Shown here: piece by piece, positions 26,531 through 36,673 of the stretch
How positions within the stretch are numbered: position 1 is the stretch's first letter
How the letters are laid out: every line of letters begins with the position of its first letter
DNA from: Thermoplasmatota archaeon
GTDB taxonomy: Archaea; Thermoplasmatota; Thermoplasmata; Thermoplasmatales; Thermoplasmataceae
Length of the DNA: 64,000 nucleotides
NCBI GenBank assembly: GCA_023487205.1
Contig: JAMDBT010000047.1
Coordinates: 16,879-80,878, forward strand
Reading direction: 5' to 3'
Program-made: the position numbers and the translations under genes
The notes under the pieces: model-generated
Seen by the model: only the letters and a program-made list of their open reading frames with translations
Databases searched by the model: none
Told to the model about the DNA's origin: nothing

Positions 26531-27134
26531 TGCATAAAACTCATGCAGGTCATCGTATAAATACTTGATTCGAAAAACTATATTGCTGAAGTAATGTCTA
26601 GCAAATTATAATTATCCGCATGATTTCTTGGTGGAAATTCGAGTTGAGGGCAAATCCTTTTCCTTTGCGGCAAGAATCAATACGCATGACTGACATTTTG
26701 AAGACAATGGATATGTCCGATAGGGGACAAAGGGGGAGAAAGCCACCATGCGTATGGCTGTGAGTTACATACATACAACCGAACTTTAGATCGGGGAACT
26801 GCAGCGGCCGGGAAAGTGGTTATACCTGGAGATGTAAACATAACCAGGGTGCGTTGTGCTGACAACAGTGGTTCCAAGGTTCCTCCGGCATTGGTTTTGT
26901 TGGAGGAGCCTGGCAACGCTGTGATTGGGGGCATATCGAAAGATGTACGCATGAAAGGGTTACCATTTCCACGCAAGATGGTGAGGGCAGGACAGCGTAA
27001 TCAAGTTGAATTACATATTCACTGTAACAAATGACACAATTCTGAAGACCGTCCTGTATCTGATCAGGGAAAAGGGGCAATTGGTTCTGAAAGAGATTAT
27101 CAGGAAACTACGCGGCATGATTGCCTGACAAGAA

Positions 27135-27208
27135 CGGGTCCGGAGGGGTTCGAACCCCCGACCTATGGATTAAGAGTCCATCGCTCTACCTGGCTAAGCT
27201 ACGGACCC
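27135..27208 (-). tRNA. tRNA-Lys (anticodon CUU)
   Basis: The reverse complement folds as GGGUCCG / GCUU..GAGC / AUGGA-CUCUUAA-UCCAU / GGGGG-UUCGAAC-CCCUC / CGGACCC-G. No intron and no encoded CCA. Confidence 0.9.
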
Positions 27209-27308
27209 GAGCGGACTGGATATGTAACTCCGGATTAAAATATTGTCACGAACCATGCTGGGGAAAAAACCCACACCAACACCTGGCTCCTTCATCAAAG
27301 GCATCAAT

Positions 27309-30300
27309 CTACTTACAGTGTGCCTTCTGAAACTTCTGGAGCATAAGCTGTACGGGCTGAATATTTTCCTTTTGTGAATGTATCGCGGCAGATTCGCAGA
27401 GCTGCTTCATAGTGACGTTCTTTGATTTGGCTGCTTTCACCAGCGTTGCTAATCCATCGTCGGAGGTCCGGCGCATGGCGAGTATCTCCGCGTAATTGAC
27501 CCATACTTCAGGCATATTGGGAGCTAGTTCAGAAAGGGTCTCGTAGGTTGAAAGTGCCTCGTCCAGCCTTCCGACTTCCTTGAGGAGCTGAACTTTTGCG
27601 TTGTAATACTCTAACTTTGTCTTGTCAAGACTGATTGCTAGATCATATTCCGCAAAGGCGGAATCTATATCTTCCATTTCCTTCAGCGCTTCGGCCTTCT
27701 GGAAGTGAAAATCAGCCTTGTTTTCCAGAGAGATTGCCTCGTCATATTGCTTGATTGCCTCGTCGTACTTCTTCAGTTTAAAGAGAGCAGTCCCTTTCAG
27801 GGAATGTGCTTCCGCCGATTTTGGATTGAGTTCTATCACACGGTCATAGGAGTCAACGCTTTCCTTTACCCTTCTGGTCCTGATCTTCAATTGACCTAGC
27901 GCCATATGAAATTCCGGGGCTTCAGGCTGAAGTTCCACCGCTGTATTGAACTCCTTAAGGGCTTCGTCAAACCGTCCCTTGTCCTGGAGCATTTCGCCGT
28001 ATGCAAAACGGTACTGTGCTTTATTTGGCTGCATCTTTGCGGCCTGCTCATATTCCTTAAGCGCATCGTCAACTCTTCCGGCAGAGGCGAATATCTCCGC
28101 CAGGGCAAAGTGGCTCTCAGCCGACGCAGAACCAGATGATCCAGCAATAGAATTAAGTGCCTCAACCGCAGCATCGATATCCCCCGAGGCAGCCAGGGCC
28201 TTCGCCTTCTTCATTACAAGGTCCCCACTGTCCTTGGAGAGTTCGATTGCAGCATCAAGCTCCGCAATGGACTCCTTTGCCCTTCCGTTATCTGCCAGAA
28301 AGTCAGCCTTTTCTGCGTGGAACTCAGGATTTCCCGGGTTAAGTGCAATGGCGCGATCAAATTCCTCTTCCGCATTATCTGGACGCCCCATCTTGAGGTA
28401 AATCCTTCCCAGGGTGGCTGAAGGCTTTCCGTCACTCGGGTTCAGTGTGATTGCTTTCTGTACCTCCTTTATGGCATCTTCATAGTTCCCCAACTTGCTG
28501 AGCGCGCTTCCCTTGGCCAGGTAATACTCATAGTTCTCATCGTCCCCGCTTATGGCCAGATCGTATTCCTTTAATGCACCATCCAGGTCCGAAGAGAGAT
28601 CCAGACTCTGTGCAAGGTCGAAATGATACGCAGTATTTGCAGGGTCCATGGATACCGCCTCTCCAAACTCTCTGGAAGCCTCCCTATATCGCCCAAGCTG
28701 AACCAGGGCTCTTCCGAGGAAATATCGTACTGGCGCTTCCCTTGGCTTCTTGGTCGCTGCCTCCTCGAGCACTTGGAGCGCATTTCTGGTGTCCTCGTTC
28801 CAGAGAAGCATGCGTCCGTACTCCAGCACGTACAGCCAGTTATCCGGTTCGAGGTCAAAAGCAGTTTTCACCGCAGACAGCGCGTCCTTCTTCTTTCCCT
28901 TGCGTTCCAGAACCTGGGCTTTGTGCAGGTACAGATCAGACTGGGTTGGAGAAATGATTATGGCGTCTTCAAAGAGCTTCTGCGCCTGGTCAAATCTCCC
29001 CTCTGAAGTGTAAGCTATGCCAAGCTTGTCGAGATACGCAACGTTCTGCCCCATAAGGCTGACCGCAGATTCCAGGTATTTTATTGATTGCTCCAGCTTG
29101 CCGGAATCAAACAGCAGCCCCCCAAGGGTGGAGACGTACTCCGGATTCATGGGATCCATCGACGATGCTTTCTTCAGGTCGGAAATACCCTCGTCAAACC
29201 GCCCCATCTCGATCAGAAGCTTGCCTTTATTGAACCATATCGATGGTTCTTCGTGGCCAGCCGATATAATCTGCTCGAAAGCAGTCAGTGCTTCTGCCCC
29301 CTTCCCCGCTTTTACCAGTATCCGCGCCTTCTTGGATTTCAGGGCGAGGTTTTCCTGATCCATCTTGATCGCCTTATCAATGTCCTTTAGCGATCCGCTT
29401 ATCTCACCCAGTTCGGCCTTGCAGACTGCTCTTTGCGCAAGCAGAATGGGATCACCTGGCGACTCATCCAGAACCTTTTCAATATTCTTCAGAGCCTCAG
29501 CGAAGTGTCCCGTTTCTGTCTGGACAAATCCCAGATCCTTCGTAATAGTGAGATTCCTTGGTGACAATTTTGCCGCTACGGTAAGATCCACTTCTGCTTC
29601 CGGGAGACGCTTCATTTCGATGAGAAGTTTTGCCCGCTTCTCCCGGTACTCGGGGTTATTCTGATCAAGCTTTATGAGATAGTCGTACCTTTCGACGGCC
29701 TTGGCCTTCACTCCATAAAGTTCAGAAACATATTTCCTGTTTTCAGGAGCAAGGGAGACAGCAATCTCATATTCCCTGAGGCTCTCGTCTGCCTTCTTCT
29801 GCTCAAGCATGAGCTTTCCGCGTCCATAGTGAAACTCTGCGTTGTCCTTGTCCAGTTCAATTGACGCGTCGATCTCTGCCATGGCATCGTCCAGCTTCCC
29901 CTGCTGCTGCAGCATCCCTGCAAGCTTGTAGTGGTAACTCGGGTCTCCCGGTCTCAGGTTTATCGCTTCCCTGCACTCCCTTATGGCATCGTCTGTCCTG
30001 CCCTGCTTGGAGAGTGCCTCAGCCTTCCTGAACCTGAACTCAGGATTCTTTGGTGACAGCCTTATTGCCTCGTTGGCCTCCTTGAGTGCCTCCTCATGCC
30101 TGCCTATCTCAGACATGGCCATGGCCTTCCTGCTATGGAACTCGGCCATGTTGGGGTTTATGCGTATTGCCTCCTCATACTCCTTCAGGGCAGGATCCGT
30201 CTTTCCTTCCCTGAGGTACAGTATGCCCTTCTCCACGTGGTACTGCGGCTCGTTGGGGTTGAGGGATATGGCCCTGTCGAACTCCTTCACTGCATCATTG

Positions 30301-33300
30301 TGCCTGCCCATCTCAACGTAAAGCCTTCCCAGGTTGCTGTAGTACAGGGATTCCTTAGGGGCGATCGAAATTGCGGTTTCGAACTCTTTCAAGGCTTCAT
30401 CGTACCTGTGCATCTCCATGAAAGCGTTCCCCTTTCCAACGCGGTAATCCGCAACCTTCGGGTCCAGTTCCACCGATCTCTCGAACTCCCTGAGGGACTC
30501 ATCGGTTCTCGAGGTTTTCAGGAGCGTCTCTCCCATCCTCGCATGGTACTCCGGGTTATCCGGATCAAACCTCACGGCCTCTCCGAACTCCTTGGAGGAC
30601 TCCCTGTTAATTCCCATCCTGGAGAGCACAATTCCACGGTAGTAGTGCACCAGGGGGTCATTGTAATTCAGCTTAACTGCAGAATTGCACTCCTCAAGCG
30701 CATCGTCAAGCATCCCAAGCCTGTTCAGCACCTCAGCCTTGTCCCTGTGGTATTCCCACCTGTCGGGATCAAGCTTCACAGCTTCGTTGAGTGCCTTGAG
30801 GGCTTCATTCTCCTCCTTAGTGGCAAGCATTATCCTGGATCTGAGATAGTAAGCGCTGGCGTCCTTCGGGTTCATCCTCAGGGACTCATTTACCTCCTTG
30901 AGTGCTGCGTTCTGCTTGCCAACGCTCAGGAGAAATCCCGCGAGGGCAACCTTAAGTTTCGTGTCCTTTGGCCTGGCCTTCACTGCCTGCGTCAACTCTT
31001 CAACGGCGTCGTCGACTCTGCCAAGCTGGGAAAGAAGGTTGGCCTTTCCGGCCCTGTATTCTGCATCGCCTGCGCTATAATCGATTGCTGACTGGTACTC
31101 CTGCAGCGCAAGTTCCTTTTCGCCAATTTTTTCAAGCAGCCTAGCTTTCTCGCTGTGCGGCAACGGGTCTGTCCTGATTATATCGATCGCCCGATCAAGC
31201 TCGGCAATGGCTTCCTTCACCCTCTCCTGGCTTGCAAGTATCCGAGACTTGCTGAGATACGCGGATGAGTCCTTGGTTCCAAGCTGTATGGCCTTTTCAT
31301 AGTCCTCAATGGCAAGGTCCTCCTTCCCCATGGTCTTCTTTATGGCGGCACTTCTGGAGTAATATGCCGGGTTGTTCGGGTCAAGGGACATCGCTTTCTC
31401 CAGGTATTCAAGAGCCTCCTTGTTTTCCCCTTTGGCCATCAAAATTCCGGATATCTCCCACGGGTACTTCGGATCCTTGCTGTCAAGGGCAACGGCTTTC
31501 TTGTATTCGGCCAGGGCCTCGTCGGTTTTACCCATCTGGGCGAGCACGTAGGCTATATCCGCATGGTGAGTCGGATCTTTAGGTTCTTTCTTGGCAGACC
31601 CTCTGTATTCCTTCAGGGCGTCGCCCAGCAATGCATCAATCTCTGTCCCACTCTCCCCGCCAACGATATCAATTACGTCGCTGTACTCCTTCAGGGCTTT
31701 ATTGGGGTCGCCTATCTTTAACAGCAACTCTCCCCTCTTGTACCTGTAGCTGCTCTCGGCAGGGTCAAGAGTGATGGCCTGGTTGAGTTCCGCAAGTGAG
31801 TTTTCAAAATCCTCTCTTTCCGCTAGGATTAAGGCCTTATGGTAATGGAAAAATGCGTTTCCAGGGTCCAATTTCATGACTTCGTCAAGGTCCCTGATCG
31901 CATCGTCATATCTCCCCATTTTAATCATGCACATGGCTTTGGACCCGTAGCTCTCCGAGTCCTTCGGATTCAGAGCGATTGCCTTTTCGTAGCTGGATAT
32001 GGCGCCAGAATAGTCGCCTTTCTGCATCAGGATTTTCCCGTTCATGGAGAAAACCTTGGGGTCGTCCTTGATGACTTGCATTGCTGCATCCACTTCCTTC
32101 TTCGCTTCATCCAGCCTGTCCAGCCTCAGGAGAATTGACGCTTTCAGGGCGTGAAGGTCGCCGGTTTCCTTTATTTCGAGGGCTTTGTTGCAAGTAGAAA
32201 GTGCGTCATCAATCTTTCCAGTATCCCTGTAGAGCAGCGCAAGATTGGCAAGGCTGTTCACGTTTTCAGGATCAATATTGATGGAATTCTGAAGATCTGA
32301 CGATGCCTGTTTCAGCCTGCCCGTCCGGAGGAATGCCATCCCTCTTCCGGAGAAATACGGGGCCATCTTTGGATTCGTGGAGATCGCGGCATTGTACTGT
32401 TCGATTGCATCTTCGTACTTTCCCGCCTCGTAGAGGGCGTCAGCATACTCCGCCCTGTAAGAGTCGTTGGCGGGGGACGCCTCAATTGCTGTCTTTAACT
32501 CGTGTACCGCCTTCTCGTAATTCCTCGTCTTTCTGTACAGCTTTCCGACCGCAAAGTGGTACTCCGGATCTGCCGGATCAATCTCCATGGCATTCCCATA
32601 TTCCCTCATTGCCTCGTCCAGCTTCCCCTGCTGCTGCAGCATCCCTGCAAGCTTGTAGTGGTAACTCGGGTCTCCCGGTCTCAGGTTTATCGCTTCCCTG
32701 CACTCCCTTATGGCATCGTCTGTCCTGCCCTGCTTGGAGAGTGCCTCAGCCTTCCTGAACCTGAACTCAGGATTCTTTGGTGACAGCCTTATTGCCTCGT
32801 TGGCCTCCTTGAGTGCCTCCTCATGCCTGCCTATCTCAGACATGGCCATGGCCTTCCTGCTATGGAACTCGGCCATGTTGGGGTTTATGCGTATTGCCTC
32901 CTCATACTCCTTCAGGGCAGGATCCGTCTTTCCTTCCCTGAGGTACAGTATGCCCTTCTCCACGTGGTACTGCGGCTCGTTGGGGTTGAGGGATATGGCC
33001 CTGTCGAACTCCTTCACTGCATCATTGTGCCTGCCCATCTCAACGTAAAGCCTTCCCAGGTTGCTGTAGTACAGGGATTCCTTAGGGGCGATCGAAATTG
33101 CGGTTTCGAACTCTTTCAAGGCTTCATCGTACCTGTGCATCTCCATGAAAGCGTTCCCCTTTCCAACGCGGTAATCCGCAACCTTCGGGTCCAGTTCCAC
33201 CGATCTCTCGAACTCCCTGAGGGACTCATCGGTTCTCGAGGTTTTCAGGAGCGTCTCTCCCATCCTCGCATGGTACTCCGGGTTATCCGGATCAAACCTC

Positions 33301-35597
33301 ACGGCCTCTCCGAACTCCTTGGAGGACTCCCTGTTAATTCCCATCCTGGAGAGCACAATTCCACGGTAGTAGTGCACCAGGGGGTCATTGTAATTCAGCT
33401 TAACTGCAGAATTGCACTCCTCAAGCGCATCGTCAAGCATCCCAAGCCTGTTCAGCACCTCAGCCTTGTCCCTGTGGTATTCCCACCTGTCGGGATCAAG
33501 CTTCACAGCTTCGTTGAGTGCCTTGAGGGCTTCTTCACGTTCCCTGAACTGAATAAGAATCTGAGACTTGTGGTAGAAGTACGAGGCGTTGGACGGTTCC
33601 ATCTTTATTGCCTCGTTGATGTCTTTCAGTGCCTCGTTGGTTTTTCCGATGTGCATGTTCGACAAGGCCCTGAGGCTCTTAACCTCGTGATCTCTTGGGT
33701 TCTTGACAATAATGAAATTAAAATCAGCAAGTGCCTCTTCGTACCTGTTGAGGTTGAAGTAGCAACTCGCTCTCTGCTTCCTGTACTCCGGATTTCCATT
33801 ATCCAGCTTAACGGCTTCAAGCATTTCAGGTAAAGCGTCCTGGTATCTCGAGAAGCGCATCAGCACCATTGCCTTATTATACCGGTACTCCGGCTCCTTG
33901 GGATTCTTCCTGATCGCGTCGTCATATTCCTTCAGGGCATCGTCGAACTTTCCGCTCTTGAGAAGTATGAGGCCCTTGTTGTACTGATAACGCGGATTTG
34001 TCCTGTCGAGAACTATCGCTTCTTCAATTTCCCTGAGGGCTTCCGTCGGCTTCTCCATGTCACTGAGCAGGAGAGCTTTGGTGCTGTGCACTTCTGGATT
34101 GTTCTTGTCCAGCACTATGCAGGTGTCAAGCTCGTCGATTGCTTCCTGAAACAGGTTCAGTTTCTGCTCGATTTCTGCTGTCCGGATATGATATGTAAGA
34201 TTGTTCGGGTCTCTCTTTACCGCTTCAGCAAGTTCCTTGAGAGCCTCCTGGTATTTTCCAATGTCCTGAAGCAGAGAGGAACGCTTGAAGTGAAACTCTG
34301 CAGTATCGGCACCGAGTTTCACGATCTTGTCGTACTCTTCTATTGCCTCATTGTGCATCTTGAGTTCGTCAAGAAGGACGGCGCGAAGTATGTGGTACTC
34401 GGGATTCCTGTCGTCGAGTTTTATCGCAGTGACAAGTTCGTTTATTGCCAGCTCCTTCTTGTTCAGCTTTACGAGGTTGACGGCCTTTCTGTAATAATAA
34501 TCCGGGATATTGGACTCAAACTTCAGTGCTACGTCTATACTCTTCAGGGCATCTGCGTACTTTTCCATGTCTCCCAGTATTGTCGCTTTCTCGAAGTGTG
34601 CGCCAGCCAGGTTAGCGTTAAGGCGAAGCGCCTCATCCACCTCCCTGAGTCCCTCGCCTAGCCTTCCCAACTTGTGTAATATAATCCCCCTGTCCAGATG
34701 GAACTGGAAGTCCGTCTGGTCAAGTTTCACTGCTTCATTGAGTTCCCAAAGGGATTCTTCAAGCCTATTGAGTTTCAACAACGCAAGGCCGAAGTCCCTG
34801 TGGAGTGCAGGGTCCAGGTGGTCAAGCACGATGGATTCCTTATATTCCCTAAGAGCTTCATCATCCCGTCCCAGTCCCATCAGCGCGTTCGCCTTGTTGT
34901 TGTGGTATGTAGGGTCTCTTGAGTTCAGACTGAGGGCATCGTTGTAGTAGGCCAGCGCCTTATCGAGGCTTCCGGATTCGTACATGATGTTCCCGTAATC
35001 GTTGTAATAGTCCGGATCACGGGGGTTTATCTTGATCGCTTCATTCAGTTCCTTGATGGCGTCTTCTCTTCTTCCCAGTTCATTTATGACCAGCGCTCGG
35101 TTGTAATGGTAGGAAGCTTCCCCCGGGGCCATCCTGAGCGCCACGTTAAAATCAGAGAGAGCCTCCTGAAGCTTGCTCAGGTTGTAATAGGCAAGTCCTC
35201 TGTTATAGTAATATGTAGCGTCATTTGGGTTCAGGGTTATTGCCTTGTTGAACTCGTCAATAGCCTGTTCAATCTTGCCGAGGTTGAAAAGAGTAACACC
35301 CCTGTTATTGTGAGATGAGGGGTTCTTTGGGTCCTTCTGGACATCTCTCGTGTACCGCTGAAGAGCGTCATCCTGGGATTCGCTAACATCGGAATCCTGG
35401 TCCATCTCCTCTTCATCAAATTCTGGTTCTGCCATCAGCGCACATCCATCAATTAACTTATTACCAATGGTACGAAATACATTAAGGTTGCTGGTTCTGT
35501 CAAGCTCCAGATTGGTGAACGAAGGCATGGTTTGCGCACAACCTACGAATTCCGAGTTAAGGTTATATAAGAACTTCCGCTCACGGACAAGAACCAT
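27309..35597 (-). CDS. giant tetratricopeptide-repeat protein (2762 aa as drawn, roughly 75-80 tandem TPR units)
   Basis: One uninterrupted ORF with a 34-aa periodicity throughout (..A...Y..AI.L.P....Y...G..L..LG...EA..). It has an acidic N-terminus (MAEPEFDEEEMDQDSDVSESQDD). No TM segment, signal peptide or enzymatic motif was seen. The true start is possibly ATG 35528 or 35435. Confidence 0.85.
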   Translation of the reverse strand: MVLVRERKFLYNLNSEFVGCAQTMPSFTNLELDRTSNLNVFRTIGNKLIDGCALMAEPEFDEEEMDQDSDVSESQDDALQRYTRDVQKDPKNPSSHNNRGVTLFNLGKIEQAIDEFNKAITLNPNDATYYYNRGLAYYNLSKLQEALSDFNVALRMAPGEASYHYNRALVINELGRREDAIKELNEAIKINPRDPDYYNDYGNIMYESGSLDKALAYYNDALSLNSRDPTYHNNKANALMGLGRDDEALREYKESIVLDHLDPALHRDFGLALLKLNRLEESLWELNEAVKLDQTDFQFHLDRGIILHKLGRLGEGLREVDEALRLNANLAGAHFEKATILGDMEKYADALKSIDVALKFESNIPDYYYRKAVNLVKLNKKELAINELVTAIKLDDRNPEYHILRAVLLDELKMHNEAIEEYDKIVKLGADTAEFHFKRSSLLQDIGKYQEALKELAEAVKRDPNNLTYHIRTAEIEQKLNLFQEAIDELDTCIVLDKNNPEVHSTKALLLSDMEKPTEALREIEEAIVLDRTNPRYQYNKGLILLKSGKFDDALKEYDDAIRKNPKEPEYRYNKAMVLMRFSRYQDALPEMLEAVKLDNGNPEYRKQRASCYFNLNRYEEALADFNFIIVKNPRDHEVKSLRALSNMHIGKTNEALKDINEAIKMEPSNASYFYHKSQILIQFREREEALKALNEAVKLDPDRWEYHRDKAEVLNRLGMLDDALEECNSAVKLNYNDPLVHYYRGIVLSRMGINRESSKEFGEAVRFDPDNPEYHARMGETLLKTSRTDESLREFERSVELDPKVADYRVGKGNAFMEMHRYDEALKEFETAISIAPKESLYYSNLGRLYVEMGRHNDAVKEFDRAISLNPNEPQYHVEKGILYLREGKTDPALKEYEEAIRINPNMAEFHSRKAMAMSEIGRHEEALKEANEAIRLSPKNPEFRFRKAEALSKQGRTDDAIRECREAINLRPGDPSYHYKLAGMLQQQGKLDEAMREYGNAMEIDPADPEYHFAVGKLYRKTRNYEKAVHELKTAIEASPANDSYRAEYADALYEAGKYEDAIEQYNAAISTNPKMAPYFSGRGMAFLRTGRLKQASSDLQNSINIDPENVNSLANLALLYRDTGKIDDALSTCNKALEIKETGDLHALKASILLRLDRLDEAKKEVDAAMQVIKDDPKVFSMNGKILMQKGDYSGAISSYEKAIALNPKDSESYGSKAMCMIKMGRYDDAIRDLDEVMKLDPGNAFFHYHKALILAEREDFENSLAELNQAITLDPAESSYRYKRGELLLKIGDPNKALKEYSDVIDIVGGESGTEIDALLGDALKEYRGSAKKEPKDPTHHADIAYVLAQMGKTDEALAEYKKAVALDSKDPKYPWEISGILMAKGENKEALEYLEKAMSLDPNNPAYYSRSAAIKKTMGKEDLAIEDYEKAIQLGTKDSSAYLSKSRILASQERVKEAIAELDRAIDIIRTDPLPHSEKARLLEKIGEKELALQEYQSAIDYSAGDAEYRAGKANLLSQLGRVDDAVEELTQAVKARPKDTKLKVALAGFLLSVGKQNAALKEVNESLRMNPKDASAYYLRSRIMLATKEENEALKALNEAVKLDPDRWEYHRDKAEVLNRLGMLDDALEECNSAVKLNYNDPLVHYYRGIVLSRMGINRESSKEFGEAVRFDPDNPEYHARMGETLLKTSRTDESLREFERSVELDPKVADYRVGKGNAFMEMHRYDEALKEFETAISIAPKESLYYSNLGRLYVEMGRHNDAVKEFDRAISLNPNEPQYHVEKGILYLREGKTDPALKEYEEAIRINPNMAEFHSRKAMAMSEIGRHEEALKEANEAIRLSPKNPEFRFRKAEALSKQGRTDDAIRECREAINLRPGDPSYHYKLAGMLQQQGKLDDAMAEIDASIELDKDNAEFHYGRGKLMLEQKKADESLREYEIAVSLAPENRKYVSELYGVKAKAVERYDYLIKLDQNNPEYREKRAKLLIEMKRLPEAEVDLTVAAKLSPRNLTITKDLGFVQTETGHFAEALKNIEKVLDESPGDPILLAQRAVCKAELGEISGSLKDIDKAIKMDQENLALKSKKARILVKAGKGAEALTAFEQIISAGHEEPSIWFNKGKLLIEMGRFDEGISDLKKASSMDPMNPEYVSTLGGLLFDSGKLEQSIKYLESAVSLMGQNVAYLDKLGIAYTSEGRFDQAQKLFEDAIIISPTQSDLYLHKAQVLERKGKKKDALSAVKTAFDLEPDNWLYVLEYGRMLLWNEDTRNALQVLEEAATKKPREAPVRYFLGRALVQLGRYREASREFGEAVSMDPANTAYHFDLAQSLDLSSDLDGALKEYDLAISGDDENYEYYLAKGSALSKLGNYEDAIKEVQKAITLNPSDGKPSATLGRIYLKMGRPDNAEEEFDRAIALNPGNPEFHAEKADFLADNGRAKESIAELDAAIELSKDSGDLVMKKAKALAASGDIDAAVEALNSIAGSSGSASAESHFALAEIFASAGRVDDALKEYEQAAKMQPNKAQYRFAYGEMLQDKGRFDEALKEFNTAVELQPEAPEFHMALGQLKIRTRRVKESVDSYDRVIELNPKSAEAHSLKGTALFKLKKYDEAIKQYDEAISLENKADFHFQKAEALKEMEDIDSAFAEYDLAISLDKTKLEYYNAKVQLLKEVGRLDEALSTYETLSELAPNMPEVWVNYAEILAMRRTSDDGLATLVKAAKSKNVTMKQLCESAAIHSQKENIQPVQLMLQKFQKAHCK
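29887..30806. repeat. copy A of a 920-bp perfect direct repeat inside the TPR gene
   Basis: Base-for-base identical, by eye, to 32614-33533. The offset is exactly 2727 bp (909 codons). Confidence 0.9.
32614..33533. repeat. copy B of a 920-bp perfect direct repeat inside the TPR gene
   Basis: Identical to 29887-30806. Shadow ORFs 29983-30321 and 32710-33048 translate identically, and the protein segment EALKALNEAVKLDPDRW...MLQQQGKLD occurs twice. Confidence 0.9.
35563..35576 (+). promoter_or_regulatory. putative TATA box/core promoter of the ribosomal-protein operon (possibly bidirectional)
   Basis: TTATATAAGAACTT lies ~110 nt upstream of the rpl3 ATG. It is the same 14-mer as at the tatA promoter. 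The TTATATAA core is palindromic and also sits ~35-43 nt upstream of the alternative TPR-gene start at 35528. Confidence 0.35.
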
Positions 35598-35683
35598 ACA
35601 TCAGGGGCAATGCACTCTGCAACCCCATGCTGCCGTTGGATTCTGACGGCGGAAAAGATGTAACGGTCTAATTCGGTGAAAGA

Positions 35684-36673
35684 ATGGCGACACCTCATCA
35701 CCCAAGACGTGGGTCTAAAGGATACTATCCAAGAGTTCGAGCGAAGCGGGAACACGGCTTCATCAGGTCATGGCCAGAGCTGGACGGAAAGGCAAAAATT
35801 CAGGCATTTGCCGGTTACAAGGTTGGCATGACTCATGTGGAGATGGTGGACTACAGAAAGAATAGTGTAACGGCTGGCCAGAGCGTTTTCAGTGCGGTGA
35901 CCATAGTGGAAGTACCTCCCCTGAAGGTGGCTGCAATCAGATTTTATTCTGAAGGGTCGGAGGGTTTGTACGTTTCCGCAGAAAAATGGGCTGAAAAGCT
36001 TGACGACTCCCTCCTGCTTCGAATACCTCGCACTGTTAACAGGAAGAAATCAGCACTGCCGGAAGACCTGTCAGACGTGCGCCTGGTGGTTCACACAGAG
36101 CCTGCCTTGGTAACCGGTATTCCCAAGAAAGTTCCGGAAATCTTTGAAGTGCGAATTGGAGGCGACAGCATGGAAAGCAGGGTGCAGTACGCGGAGTCAA
36201 AACTCGGCCAGGATCTCAGATTTACCGACTTTTCTGGGTCGGGAAAATTTGTGGACGTTATCGGCGTGACAAAGGGAAAGGGGTTTACCGGTCACGTTGA
36301 GAGATTTGGGGTAAAACTGCTCCCAAGGAAGAACAGAAAGCATAGAAGAATGATTGGTACCCTAGGGCCGTGGCATCCAAACTTCGTTAAGGAAACGGTA
36401 CCACAGGCCGGTCAAATGGGCTATCAGCAGCGGACCGCCCACAATATCAGGGTCATTAAGTATGGCACTGCAGAGGAGTCTTCGTCGGTGAACGTGAAAG
36501 GTGGGAACGTTGGATACGGGCTTGTGAGAAACGATTTCGTGCTCCTGCACGGGTCAATCCCGGGGCCAAGCCACAGGCTGGTGAAGATGAGAGACCCCGC
36601 CAGGCAGAAATCTCCTGACGTGAAGGACCTCAAGGTTTCATACATTTCAGTTGAATCAAAGCAAGGTGATTAA
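35684..36673 (+). CDS. rpl3: 50S ribosomal protein L3 (uL3)
   Basis: MATPHHPRRGSKGYYPRVRA.. and ..FAGYKVGMTHV.., first gene of the cluster. Confidence 0.95.
   Translation: MATPHHPRRGSKGYYPRVRAKREHGFIRSWPELDGKAKIQAFAGYKVGMTHVEMVDYRKNSVTAGQSVFSAVTIVEVPPLKVAAIRFYSEGSEGLYVSAEKWAEKLDDSLLLRIPRTVNRKKSALPEDLSDVRLVVHTEPALVTGIPKKVPEIFEVRIGGDSMESRVQYAESKLGQDLRFTDFSGSGKFVDVIGVTKGKGFTGHVERFGVKLLPRKNRKHRRMIGTLGPWHPNFVKETVPQAGQMGYQQRTAHNIRVIKYGTAEESSSVNVKGGNVGYGLVRNDFVLLHGSIPGPSHRLVKMRDPARQKSPDVKDLKVSYISVESKQGD

What the first reader, a model, noticed from the sequence alone, without database searches (positions are those of the whole stretch)
27309..35597. 8.3-kb gene encoding a 2762-aa protein made almost only of TPR repeats, divergent from the ribosomal superoperon
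A single uninterrupted ORF shows 34-aa TPR periodicity from about residue 85 almost to the C-terminus, roughly 75-80 units. An acidic, Asp/Glu-rich N-terminal peptide precedes the repeats. I saw no TM segment, signal sequence, enzymatic motif or other recognisable domain. TPR proteins are common, but a near-pure TPR solenoid of this length is exceptional for a compact archaeal genome. The gene sits between tRNA-Lys and the promoter region of the rpl3 operon. Such a protein could be a giant scaffold or cytoskeleton-like element, or a rapidly evolving interaction platform.
Basis: partly seen in the sequence, partly recalled or inferred. Interest (0 to 1): 0.7.

Follow-up and report, generated by a model that had tools for sequence, protein, structure and literature searches.

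The report
Giant all-TPR scaffold protein, Thermoplasmatota
This is a real, strongly conserved gene of an uncultured acid-mine archaeon that encodes a 2708-residue cytoplasmic protein made of about 77 tetratricopeptide repeats; it is an unusually long member of an ordinary class of protein-binding scaffolds, and its partners are unknown.

Summary
An intact 8.1-kb gene on the minus strand lies between tRNA-Lys(CTT) and the divergently transcribed rpl3 operon. Its product contains only TPR-type helical repeats. Orthologues place the true start at ATG 35435, giving 2708 aa rather than 2762.

The protein is about 307 kDa and acidic, with no TM segment or signal peptide. It has a disordered acidic N-terminal tail, about 77 TPR units and a short helical C-terminal cap.

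The gene is not an artefact. Three assemblies carry the same structure. All 9 strain SNPs in the CDS are synonymous, and dN/dS is about 0.03 between close orthologues.

The same locus holds an orthologue in at least 18 related Thermoplasmatales-like loci. One complete orthologue has only 1167 aa (31 units detected). Both termini and roughly the first 27 units are orthologous. The window protein carries about 45 extra internal units, including an exact, in-phase 9-unit (920-nt) duplication. That repeat breaks most short-read assemblies.

The most likely function is a cytoplasmic multivalent scaffold; this is inferred, not shown. "Rapidly evolving" is not supported. Giant all-TPR proteins of 3100-3600 aa also occur in bacterial MAGs, so this is an extreme member of a known kind, not a new kind.

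The parts
27309..35435 (-). Coding sequence of the giant TPR protein: 2708 aa plus the stop codon at 27309-27311.
   Evidence: The ORF is intact. The exact 2708-aa product is called in NCBI assembly GCA_023379545.1. In orthologues a stop codon lies immediately, or a few codons, upstream of the equivalent Met. All 9 SNPs in the CDS are synonymous.
35436..35597 (-). 5' extension of the mechanical ORF (54 codons). It is most likely non-coding and belongs to the promoter and leader region shared with rpl3.
   Evidence: The extension is not conserved. The orthologous ORFs are closed by stop codons just upstream of the Met that precedes the acidic peptide. A conserved TATA-like element lies downstream of the two upstream ATGs.
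35477..35487 (-). TATA-box-like element CCTTAATGTAT, 42-52 nt upstream of ATG 35435.
   Evidence: The orthologous loci carry (C/T)TTAAAAT(G/A) at the same relative place. Promoter function is inferred, not shown.
35388..35435 (-). Disordered acidic N-terminal tail, residues 1-16 (MAEPEFDEEEMDQDSD).
   Evidence: pLDDT is below 50 in the model. Net charge is -10 over the first 40 aa. An acidic, low-complexity tail of variable sequence is present in all 15 orthologues.
35334..35387 (-). N-terminal capping helix, residues 17-34 (..DDALQRYTRDVQKDPKN).
   Evidence: It forms helix 17-34 in the AlphaFold2 model. The motif EALxKYxxEVxxxPxNP is conserved across orthologues.
27507..35321 (-). TPR array, residues 39-2643: 74 units detected and about 77 inferred.
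   Evidence: Pfam hits. Self-trained HMM. The models show helix-turn-helix hairpins throughout.
32568..35321 (-). Conserved N-terminal module, units 1-27 (residues 39-956), with strict 34-aa spacing.
   Evidence: It is collinear with the 1167-aa orthologue of L073 (39% identity over 1068 aa). Unit-by-unit orthology holds for many units (units 1-5, 18-22 and 25 against L073), and L020, L063 and L073 cease to align unit for unit beyond about unit 27.
32614..33533 (-). Duplicated block, N-proximal copy: residues 635-940, exactly 9 x 34 aa.
   Evidence: It is 920 nt identical to 29887-30806. Units at this position match the orthologous units of L020, L063 and L073. The contigs of L003 and L004 begin inside it, and L004 begins 140 nt (k-1) from its edge.
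29887..30806 (-). Duplicated block, distal copy: residues 1544-1849.
   Evidence: Same evidence as the N-proximal copy. The offset is 2727 nt (909 aa). The flanks are in register but at background identity of 24-38%.
29514..29606 (-). Low-confidence, irregular segment, residues 1944-1974: a possible hinge or break in the solenoid.
   Evidence: pLDDT is below 50 in the model of the C-terminal tile. The segment coincides with a 62-68-aa gap in unit spacing.
28950..29042 (-). Second low-confidence segment, residues 2132-2162.
   Evidence: pLDDT is below 50.
27312..27506 (-). Conserved C-terminal helical cap, residues 2644-2708 (..PEVWVNYAEIL..VTMKQLCE..HCK).
   Evidence: The last 121 aa align without gaps to the C-terminus of the L073 orthologue at 36% identity. 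The model shows four helices at pLDDT 60-75. No distinct Pfam family matches.
27134..27209 (-). tRNA-Lys(CTT), about 100 nt downstream of the stop codon.
   Evidence: Found by ARAGORN and Rfam. L073 has the same arrangement.
35684..36673 (+). rpl3, the first gene of the ribosomal-protein operon, transcribed divergently.
   Evidence: Pfam Ribosomal_L3, with the gene order shown. A TPR gene lies divergent from rpl3 in 16 other loci.

Best explanation
What is shown:
- The gene is a native, expressed-looking, strongly constrained gene of a Thermoplasmatales-like archaeon.
- Its product is a 307-kDa soluble cytoplasmic protein that is one long TPR alpha-solenoid.
- The architecture is a disordered acidic tail, a capping helix, about 77 helix-turn-helix units and a four-helix C-terminal cap.
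- It belongs to a lineage-specific orthologous family that sits in the slot between tRNA-Lys(CTT) and rpl3. Both ends and roughly the first 27 units of the family are conserved unit by unit.
- The distal part of the array varies in length: 1167 aa in one species, 2708 aa here.
- The array grows by in-register segmental duplication between repeats. The latest event is an exact 9-unit copy.

What is inferred:
- It works as other long TPR proteins do (OGT TPR domain, Ski3, Ctr9, IFT-A and APC/C subunits). It would be a passive multivalent scaffold whose superhelical groove and surfaces hold several partner proteins or extended peptides.
- The conserved N-terminal module would be the main, partner-specific binding platform.
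- The variable distal array would add further sites or act as a spacer.
- If it had the geometry of designed consensus TPRs (8 units per turn, 72 A pitch; from memory, Kajander et al. 2007, not measured here), a continuous array would have about 9.6 turns and be about 70 nm long.
For: Real gene:
- The ORF is intact.
- The window, NCBI GCA_023379545.1 and a 319-kb JGI contig have the same length and the same duplication, yet differ by 4-5 SNPs.
- 9 of 9 SNPs in the CDS are synonymous.
- dN/dS is 0.03 for two close orthologue pairs.
- Codon usage matches that of the ribosomal-protein genes: CAI 0.779 against 0.740 +/- 0.026 for 25 other genes.

Only TPR and cytoplasmic.

Orthologous family at a fixed locus:
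- 14 GTDB loci plus L072 and L073 carry a divergent TPR gene upstream of rpl3; L074 carries a more distant (41%) truncated orthologue whose upstream gene was not checked.
- L073 has the order rpl3, TPR (1167 aa), tRNA-Lys(CTT).

Positional conservation:
- Orthologous units are 45-80% identical, against 26% between units within the protein.
- The N-terminal alignment has 75 invariant columns across 15 species.
- The C-terminal 121 aa align without gaps.
- Repeat-specific constraint is concentrated in helix A, at positions 3, 4, 5 and 7.

Scaffold analogy: the best PDB sequence and fold matches are consensus TPR superhelices (rmsd 4-6 A over 255 columns), OGT, Ski3, Ctr9, SPINDLY, IFT-A and APC/C.
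Against: - No partner, ligand or phenotype is known, and no conserved operon partner exists. The gene is monocistronic, and the genes beyond the tRNA appear to differ between the window and L073; I compared ORF sizes and strands only, not their products.
- 'Scaffold' is the default reading for any TPR protein and rests on analogy only.
- There is no expression data.
- The solenoid may not be continuous. The model confidence drops in residues 280-380, 1944-1974 and 2132-2162, and residues 621-1879 were not modelled.
- The closest relatives by L3 (L006, L007) and three clade members (L047, L050, L051) lack the gene at this position, so it is dispensable or mobile within the clade.
Confidence: 0.55

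Rival explanations
1. Structural or mechanical element. The protein would be a cytoskeleton-like nanospring or ruler for wall-less Thermoplasmatales-type cells. It might self-associate head to tail through the acidic N-terminal tail and the conserved C-terminal cap, so that the number of units sets a length.
For: - Both termini are conserved while the interior varies from 31 detected units to about 77.
- The acidic disordered tail is conserved in character in all orthologues.
- Codon usage resembles that of highly expressed genes.
- Consensus TPR arrays behave as springs (PMC8944806).
- The relatives are Thermoplasmatales, many of which lack a cell wall (my own knowledge).
Against: - There is no evidence of self-association.
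- Unit-by-unit conservation of distinct sequences in the first 27 units suggests specific ligands rather than a uniform structural rod.
- The gene is absent at this locus from several clade members and from the cultured Thermoplasmatales examined.
- The tail is not docked in the monomer model.
Confidence: 0.15
2. The length is inflated by assembly. The 920-nt exact repeat would exist once, or the population would be a mixture. The real gene would then be shorter, for example A-R-C at about 1799 aa, or rearranged.
For: - The repeat is exact over 920 nt, longer than short reads.
- Two other assemblies of the same species break inside it.
- Every truncated orthologue contig ends inside the gene.
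- No long-read or read-depth data were available.
Against: - Three assemblies with different SNP sets give the identical A-R-B-R-C structure.
- The 1807-nt segment B between the copies is in-frame TPR sequence flanked by R on both sides, so A-R-B-R-C is the only linear path that uses every segment (my reasoning).
- The L004 contig stops exactly k-1 = 140 nt into the repeat, the signature of a true graph branch.
- L020 shows an independent intragenic duplication.
Confidence: 0.07
3. Binder of a linear polyanion. The basic and aromatic helix-A face (H/R/K at position 4, K/R at position 7, Y at positions 3 and 5) would line a spiral channel that binds RNA or another polyanion. This would resemble PPR, HAT or IFIT proteins, and could relate to the adjacent translation genes.
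For: - Position 7 is K/R in 64% of units and is 85% conserved between orthologues. Position 4 is H/R/K. Helix B is acidic.
- Synteny with rpl3 and a tRNA gene is conserved.
Against: - The overall pI is 5.3, and every 340-aa window is net negative.
- The YxNRG subtype is common in ordinary peptide-binding TPRs: it is the consensus of the unrelated homologues in alignments A2 and A3.
- Whether position 7 faces the groove was not measured.
- No PPR- or IFIT-type family membership was found.
- The tRNA-Lys/rpl3 linkage predates the gene.
Confidence: 0.05
4. Decaying or selfishly expanding repeat DNA with no cellular function: a pseudogene or junk ORF.
For: - Repeat number is unstable between lineages.
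- The gene is absent from some clade members.
Against: - There is no stop codon in 2708 codons.
- dN/dS is 0.03, and 9 of 9 SNPs are synonymous.
- The termini and the promoter element are conserved.
Confidence: 0.02
5. Secreted or surface protein, or part of an anti-virus system with a TPR sensor.
For: - Many bacterial TPR proteins named by NCBIfam are periplasmic or lipoproteins.
- PADLOC contains TPR components.
Against: - There is no signal peptide, TM segment or C-terminal anchor.
- The N-terminus is acidic and disordered.
- There is no NTPase, nuclease or other effector domain.
- The neighbours are housekeeping genes.
Confidence: 0.03

Closest known systems
Designed consensus TPR superhelices (CTPR8, CTPR16; PDB 8bu0, 8chy, 9qhb, 2fo7)
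   Same: They are the best sequence match in the PDB (9qhb, E = 2e-52) and the best local fold match (rmsd 4.3-5.7 A over 255 columns, TM 0.64-0.73). Both have strict 34-aa units with no insertions; here the first 30 units are spaced that way.
   Different: This array is natural, about 77 units long, and every unit is different (26% mean identity). The family signature is H4, K/R7 and K/R16 instead of W4, L7 and D16 (the CTPR consensus is from memory). It also has a specific N-terminal tail and C-terminal cap.
TPR domain of O-GlcNAc transferase and SPINDLY (PDB 1w3b, 7yea, 7y4i)
   Same: Both are long, regular right-handed TPR superhelices. The sequence match to residues 28-317 has E = 2e-34, and these entries are top fold matches. 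The first units carry Asn at position 5 or 6, invariant in units 1, 2 and 4 across the 15 species. This recalls the OGT asparagine ladder (from memory).
   Different: There is no GT41 catalytic domain or any other enzyme domain. The array has about 77 units, against 11-13.5.
Eukaryotic giant TPR scaffolds: Ski3/TTC37, Ctr9, TTC21B (IFT-A) and the APC/C TPR subunits
   Same: Both are all-helical TPR solenoids that serve only as platforms for multi-subunit complexes. They are among the top Foldseek hits.
   Different: The similarity is at fold level only (11-15% identity). The partners are eukaryote-specific, and no homologous complex is known in archaea.
Uncharacterised giant TPR proteins of bacterial MAGs (for example P0245, 3616 aa, Sphingobacteriia; P0017/P0403, 3557 aa, 'Cyanobacteria bacterium UBA8530'; P0107, 3110 aa)
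   Same: They are of similar size, and those with a source name are called only 'tetratricopeptide repeat protein' or hypothetical. I checked domain content only for P0245, where just TPR-type families hit. They have no assigned function.
   Different: They are only 20-29% identical and not collinear, so they are not orthologues. They are bacterial. At equal thresholds they have fewer canonical 34-aa units. Other large hits carry kinase or glycosyltransferase domains, for example P0244 and P0001.

Membership tests
Tetratricopeptide repeat (TPR) superfamily | Tandem 34-residue units with the small/large residue pattern 4-7-8-11-20-24-27-32. | tested here: met
   Pfam TPR_1, TPR_2, TPR_8, TPR_11 and TPR_16 all score far above their cut-offs. 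There are 74 units at 34-aa spacing. Column make-up: A20 in 55 of 66 units, A27 in 51 of 66, P32 in 39 of 66, A/G8 in 59 of 66, L11 in 43 of 66.
Tetratricopeptide repeat (TPR) superfamily | Each unit folds as a helix-turn-helix hairpin, and the hairpins stack into a solenoid. | tested here: met
   The AlphaFold2 models of residues 1-620 (pLDDT 86.7) and 1880-2708 (pLDDT 84.8) consist of paired 13-14-residue helices throughout. Fold matches are to TPR superhelices. Residues 621-1879 were not modelled.
O-GlcNAc transferase / SPINDLY (GT41) | C-terminal GT41 glycosyltransferase catalytic domain. | tested here: not met
   No glycosyltransferase family appears among the families listed by Pfam or NCBIfam (25 shown per search). 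The C-terminal 113 aa hit only weak TPR families.
XrtA/PEP-CTERM TPR protein PrsT, MamA, PilW, LcrH/SycD and Tgl (NCBIfam 'equivalogs' that exceed their cut-off) | A single full-length match to the model, plus the system context: signal peptide or lipoprotein, magnetosome island, pilus or T3SS genes. | tested here: not met
   The scores are sums over 10-19 separate stretches of a 2708-aa protein against models of 136-899 positions. There is no signal peptide. The neighbours are a tRNA, an ABC sugar transporter and ribosomal genes. The organism is archaeal.
Exopolysaccharide export TPR-porins (BcsC, PgaA, PelB/AlgK type) | Signal peptide, periplasmic TPR array and a C-terminal beta-barrel porin. 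| tested here: not met
   The scores are below the curated cut-offs (BcsC 260 against 858; PgaA 317 against 367). There are no beta strands in the models and no signal peptide.
STAND/NLR-type or other defence proteins with a TPR sensor | An NTPase (NB-ARC/AAA) or effector domain joined to the TPR array. | tested here: not met
   PADLOC matches only the generic TPR portions. There is no P-loop or nuclease family in Pfam.
Lineage-specific 'rpl3-adjacent giant TPR' family (defined here) | Acidic tail plus the EALxKYxxEVxxxPxNPxxHNN cap and first units, collinear with orthologues, at the locus between rpl3 and tRNA-Lys(CTT). | tested here: met
   Alignment A4 of 15 species has 75 invariant columns. 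Synteny is shown. The C-terminal cap is shared with L073.
Ski3/Ctr9/APC-type complex scaffolds | Documented stable partners bound along the solenoid. | not testable with these tools
   Only fold similarity is available. No interaction data exist for this organism.

The most novel reading that the evidence does not exclude
A clade of wall-less, acidophilic Thermoplasmatales-like archaea carries a length-variable cytoplasmic TPR 'nanospring' or molecular ruler. Conserved docking ends (an acidic tail and a C-terminal cap) and a conserved 27-unit head are joined by an array that each lineage lengthens or shortens by in-register recombination, from about 30 nm to about 70 nm. The protein would act as a structural or spacing element of the cell rather than as a mere adaptor.
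Probability: 0.12. Interest if true: 0.7.

Novelty: new member of a known kind. Interest (0 to 1): 0.38.

Why it matters
If the product is made as predicted, it would be one of the longest regular TPR arrays seen in nature: about 77 units, against the 3-16 usually quoted.

The family offers a natural series. The ends and the 27-unit head stay the same while the array length varies from 1167 to 2708 aa. That series could be used to study how very long alpha-solenoids fold, flex and recruit partners, and how repeat arrays grow by in-register duplication while each old unit stays under strong purifying selection.

There is also a practical point. The gene ends the contig in every truncated orthologue locus recovered (14 of 14 GTDB loci, plus L072 and L074). 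As a result the family is almost invisible in protein databases: no representative above 37% identity turned up among 1.84 billion clusters. Curated 'equivalog' models would also mis-name it.

It does not open a new class of biology. The function remains an inference by analogy.

Tried and rejected
1. Protein database searches for orthologues. I searched with the whole protein, the N-terminal 350 aa and the C-terminal 800 aa.
   - All three were swamped by generic TPR proteins at 19-39% identity.
   - The tool appears to return only proteins of roughly similar length to the query.
   - Only P0124 (53% identity) was an orthologue, and it is a chimeric TPR::L3 call.
2. Exhaustive HMMER search of 1.84 billion representatives with residues 1-1200. 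It gave 507,042 hits, none above 37% identity, so no orthologue cluster is in that library.
3. Pseudo-alignment of shifted tiles of the protein itself for AlphaFold2. MAFFT simply overlaid the identical overlapping parts, so I abandoned it and used generic TPR homologues instead.
4. Search for ancient block duplications inside the array. Apart from the exact 9-unit copy, no 5-unit block exceeds 40% identity, against a background of 25 +/- 6%. The origin of the other roughly 36 extra units is therefore unresolved.
5. Test of whether each truncated orthologue contig ends in a copy of an upstream segment. This was positive only for L020. For the others the second copy would lie on another contig.
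6. Hypotheses rejected: a cryptic terminal domain; a defence system; a secreted protein; and starts at 35597 or 35528.
7. Literature. I found no paper on a giant TPR protein of Thermoplasmatales. The 'giant genes' preprint concerns Omnitrophota multi-domain proteins.
Full report
**1. Is it there?**

The minus-strand ORF 27309..35597 is uninterrupted for 2762 codons. The 25 best Pfam families listed (of 50 hit) are all TPR or TPR-like helical repeats.

An HMM trained on the protein's own repeats finds 73-74 units from just after the N-terminal peptide to about 65 residues before the stop. Three gaps of 62-70 aa each fit one more degenerate unit. The first 30 units are spaced at exactly 34 residues.

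tRNA-Lys(CTT) lies at 27134-27209 (-), about 100 nt after the stop. rpl3 starts at 35684 (+) and opens the usual archaeal ribosomal-protein operon.

**2. Source and start codon**

Exact-sequence look-ups show the neighbouring L3 and ABC-transporter proteins in MAGs named 'Candidatus Thermoplasmatota archaeon'. NCBI assembly GCA_023379545.1 calls a 2708-aa product starting at ATG 35435. A 319-kb JGI contig calls 2739 aa.

In 14 related species the orthologous ORF is closed by a stop codon at, or a few codons before, the Met that precedes an acidic peptide. A conserved (C/T)TTAAAAT-like TATA box lies 30-55 nt upstream of that Met. In the window the copy is CCTTAATGTAT at 35477-35487, downstream of the other two candidate ATGs. 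I therefore take 35435 as the start and 2708 aa as the length.

The product is 307 kDa with pI 5.3 and GRAVY -0.62. No 19-residue window is hydrophobic enough for a membrane segment, and the first 40 residues carry net charge -10.

**3. Real gene or artefact?**

The gene contains an exact 920-nt direct repeat, 29887-30806 = 32614-33533, offset by 2727 nt. At the protein level it is exactly nine 34-residue units (residues 635-940 = 1544-1849). Its flanks are in register but at background identity.

Such a repeat could be a mis-assembly, but several results argue otherwise:
- The window, the NCBI contig and the JGI contig have the same length and structure while differing at 4-5 SNPs.
- Two further assemblies of the same species break inside the N-proximal copy. 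One megahit k141 contig begins exactly 140 nt (k-1) inside the repeat edge, as expected at a true graph branch.
- All nine SNPs inside the CDS among the five assemblies are synonymous.
- Between close orthologue pairs dN/dS is 0.03.
- Codon usage is native and resembles that of the ribosomal-protein genes.

I could not examine reads, so a shorter allele in part of the population is not excluded. I give that rival 0.07.

**4. The family**

I scanned one genome per GTDB species with L3 and recovered 66 loci. In 14 of them a TPR ORF lies divergent from rpl3. In all 14 the contig ends inside that ORF, after 451-1293 aa. These species group with the window in an L3 neighbour-joining tree.

There are exceptions in or near the clade. 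L047, L050 and L051 have no TPR gene there. L007 has a permease. L006 has an IS66-like transposase followed by a contig end.

The N-terminal 335 residues of 15 species align with one single-residue gap and 75 invariant columns. The window protein is collinear, with no indel, over 18 units with orthologues that are about 50% identical. Units within the protein are on average only 26% identical to each other. The array is therefore old, and each unit keeps its own identity. There is no general concerted evolution and no rapid divergence.

I scanned the metagenome collection with that alignment and found a complete orthologue on a 270-kb contig (L073). It is 1167 aa with 31 detected units. rpl3 is divergent on one side, and tRNA-Lys(CTT) lies 73 nt after the stop on the other. 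The L073 protein aligns to window residues 22-1089 at 39% identity. Its last 121 residues align without gaps to the window's C-terminus at 36%.

The window protein therefore has the same two ends plus about 1540 extra internal residues, roughly 45 units. Beyond about unit 27, L020, L063 and L073 stop being unit-for-unit alignable with the window or with each other.

Ten of the 16 truncated contigs end 16.7-19.2 units from the N-terminus. The L020 contig ends in a 98% copy of its own upstream segment. Long intragenic duplications starting near unit 17-18 thus seem to occur in several species. Whether this is one old duplication homogenised by gene conversion or a recurrent event is open.

The tRNA-Lys(CTT)/rpl3 linkage is older than the gene. 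It is found across Thermoplasmatales with 0.3-5.5 kb of other content in between.

**5. Structure**

AlphaFold2 models, built with generic TPR homologues as the alignment, gave these results:
- Residues 1-620: pLDDT 86.7. Residues 1-16 are disordered, a capping helix spans 17-34, and regular hairpins follow. Confidence is weaker in 280-380.
- Residues 1880-2708: pLDDT 84.8. The tile is all helical, with two low-confidence stretches at 1944-1974 and 2132-2162 and a four-helix C-terminal cap.

No beta structure or cryptic domain appears. The C-terminal 113 aa and the N-terminal 40 aa hit nothing specific in Pfam.

The best PDB sequence matches are engineered consensus TPRs and the OGT TPR domain. 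The best fold matches are Ctr9, OGT, Ski3, CTPR8/16, SPINDLY, IFT-A and APC/C subunits. The figure of about 70 nm assumes CTPR geometry recalled from the literature.

**6. Clues to mechanism**

I compared conservation between orthologous units with conservation between units of one protein. The largest excess is at TPR positions 5, 7, 4, 34 and 3, that is, the first half of helix A. This fits unit-specific surfaces under selection, as expected if different units contact different ligands.

Helix A is aromatic and basic (Y3, H4, K/R7), the turn has K/R16, and helix B is acidic. I did not establish which of these residues face the groove, so I draw no strong conclusion from this pattern.

I saw no conserved operon partner: the genes beyond the tRNA appear to differ between the window and L073, judged by ORF size and strand only. 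PADLOC and NCBIfam give only repeat-summed generic hits.

**7. How unusual?**

An exhaustive search of 1.84 billion cluster representatives gave 507,042 TPR hits. Most of the top 150 are 1200-4400 aa long, at 22-37% identity.

Some of these carry other domains: P0244 has two kinase domains and P0001 has GT9. For others I saw only TPR: P0245 (3616 aa, Sphingobacteriia) hits only TPR-type Pfam families, and P0017 (3557 aa) is named only as a hypothetical protein of 'Cyanobacteria bacterium UBA8530'.

Among the 259 retrieved proteins of at least 1200 aa, the window protein has the most detected canonical units and the highest TPR fraction. This holds both with its own HMM and with a generalised one. 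That set was ranked by similarity to the query, so it is not an unbiased census.

I found no paper describing this family or a giant TPR protein in Thermoplasmatales.

**8. Verdict**

The object is a genuine, selected, lineage-specific giant TPR protein.

Its most probable role is a cytoplasmic multivalent scaffold with a conserved head and an expandable array (0.55). A structural or ruler role is the most interesting alternative (0.12-0.15).

It is an extreme member of a known kind. It is interesting mainly as a natural model of very long solenoids and of repeat-array growth, and as a caution about MAG fragmentation and automatic naming.

Noticed in passing
P0124 (ENA, 3-kb contig); corresponds to the region around window 35435-35684: This 324-aa gene call fuses the first ~200 aa of a TPR orthologue in frame to the last ~120 aa of ribosomal protein L3. 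The two genes are divergent, so the contig is probably chimeric or inverted.
   Followed up: partly
window 27312-35435 (-): The NCBIfam 'equivalog' models MamA, PrsT, PilW, LcrH/SycD and Tgl all exceed their curated cut-offs on this protein. They do so only because scores add up over 10-19 repeat stretches, so automatic pipelines could mis-name it.
   Followed up: yes
L008, L010, L015, L024, L029, L035, L066, L073 and window 27134-35684: tRNA-Lys(CTT) lies upstream of rpl3 on the opposite strand across Thermoplasmatales. The slot between them varies: 0.3 kb in E-plasma, 1.6-5.5 kb of other genes elsewhere, 3.6 kb with the 1167-aa TPR gene in L073, and 8.1 kb in the window.
   Followed up: partly
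L006:44-1288: In the species with the most similar L3 (78%), an IS66-like transposase ORF sits directly upstream of rpl3 and the contig ends there. The TPR gene may be disrupted, displaced or absent.
   Followed up: no
L011-L038, L003, L004 (contig ends inside the TPR gene): Ten of 16 truncated contigs end 16.7-19.2 TPR units from the N-terminus. The end of the L020 contig (nt 1-120) is a 98% copy of its own nt 1918-2037. This suggests long intragenic duplications starting near unit 17-18 in several species.
   Followed up: partly
window 30096-31091 (+) and 32823-33833 (+): Two long antisense ORFs (331 and 336 aa) lie inside the gene, one in each copy of the duplicated block. They are most likely shadow ORFs caused by the biased codon composition of the repeats.
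   Followed up: no
window 35564-35571 (+): A strong TATA-like TTATATAA lies about 115 nt upstream of the rpl3 ATG. With the TPR-gene TATA at 35477-35487 (-), the 248-nt spacer would hold two back-to-back promoters.
   Followed up: no
The search for homologous proteins outputs: The hits returned always fell within roughly 0.55-1.75 times the query length. The exact 2708-aa sequence is absent from that collection although it is present in the contig index. Negative results from that tool for this family are therefore weak.
   Followed up: partly
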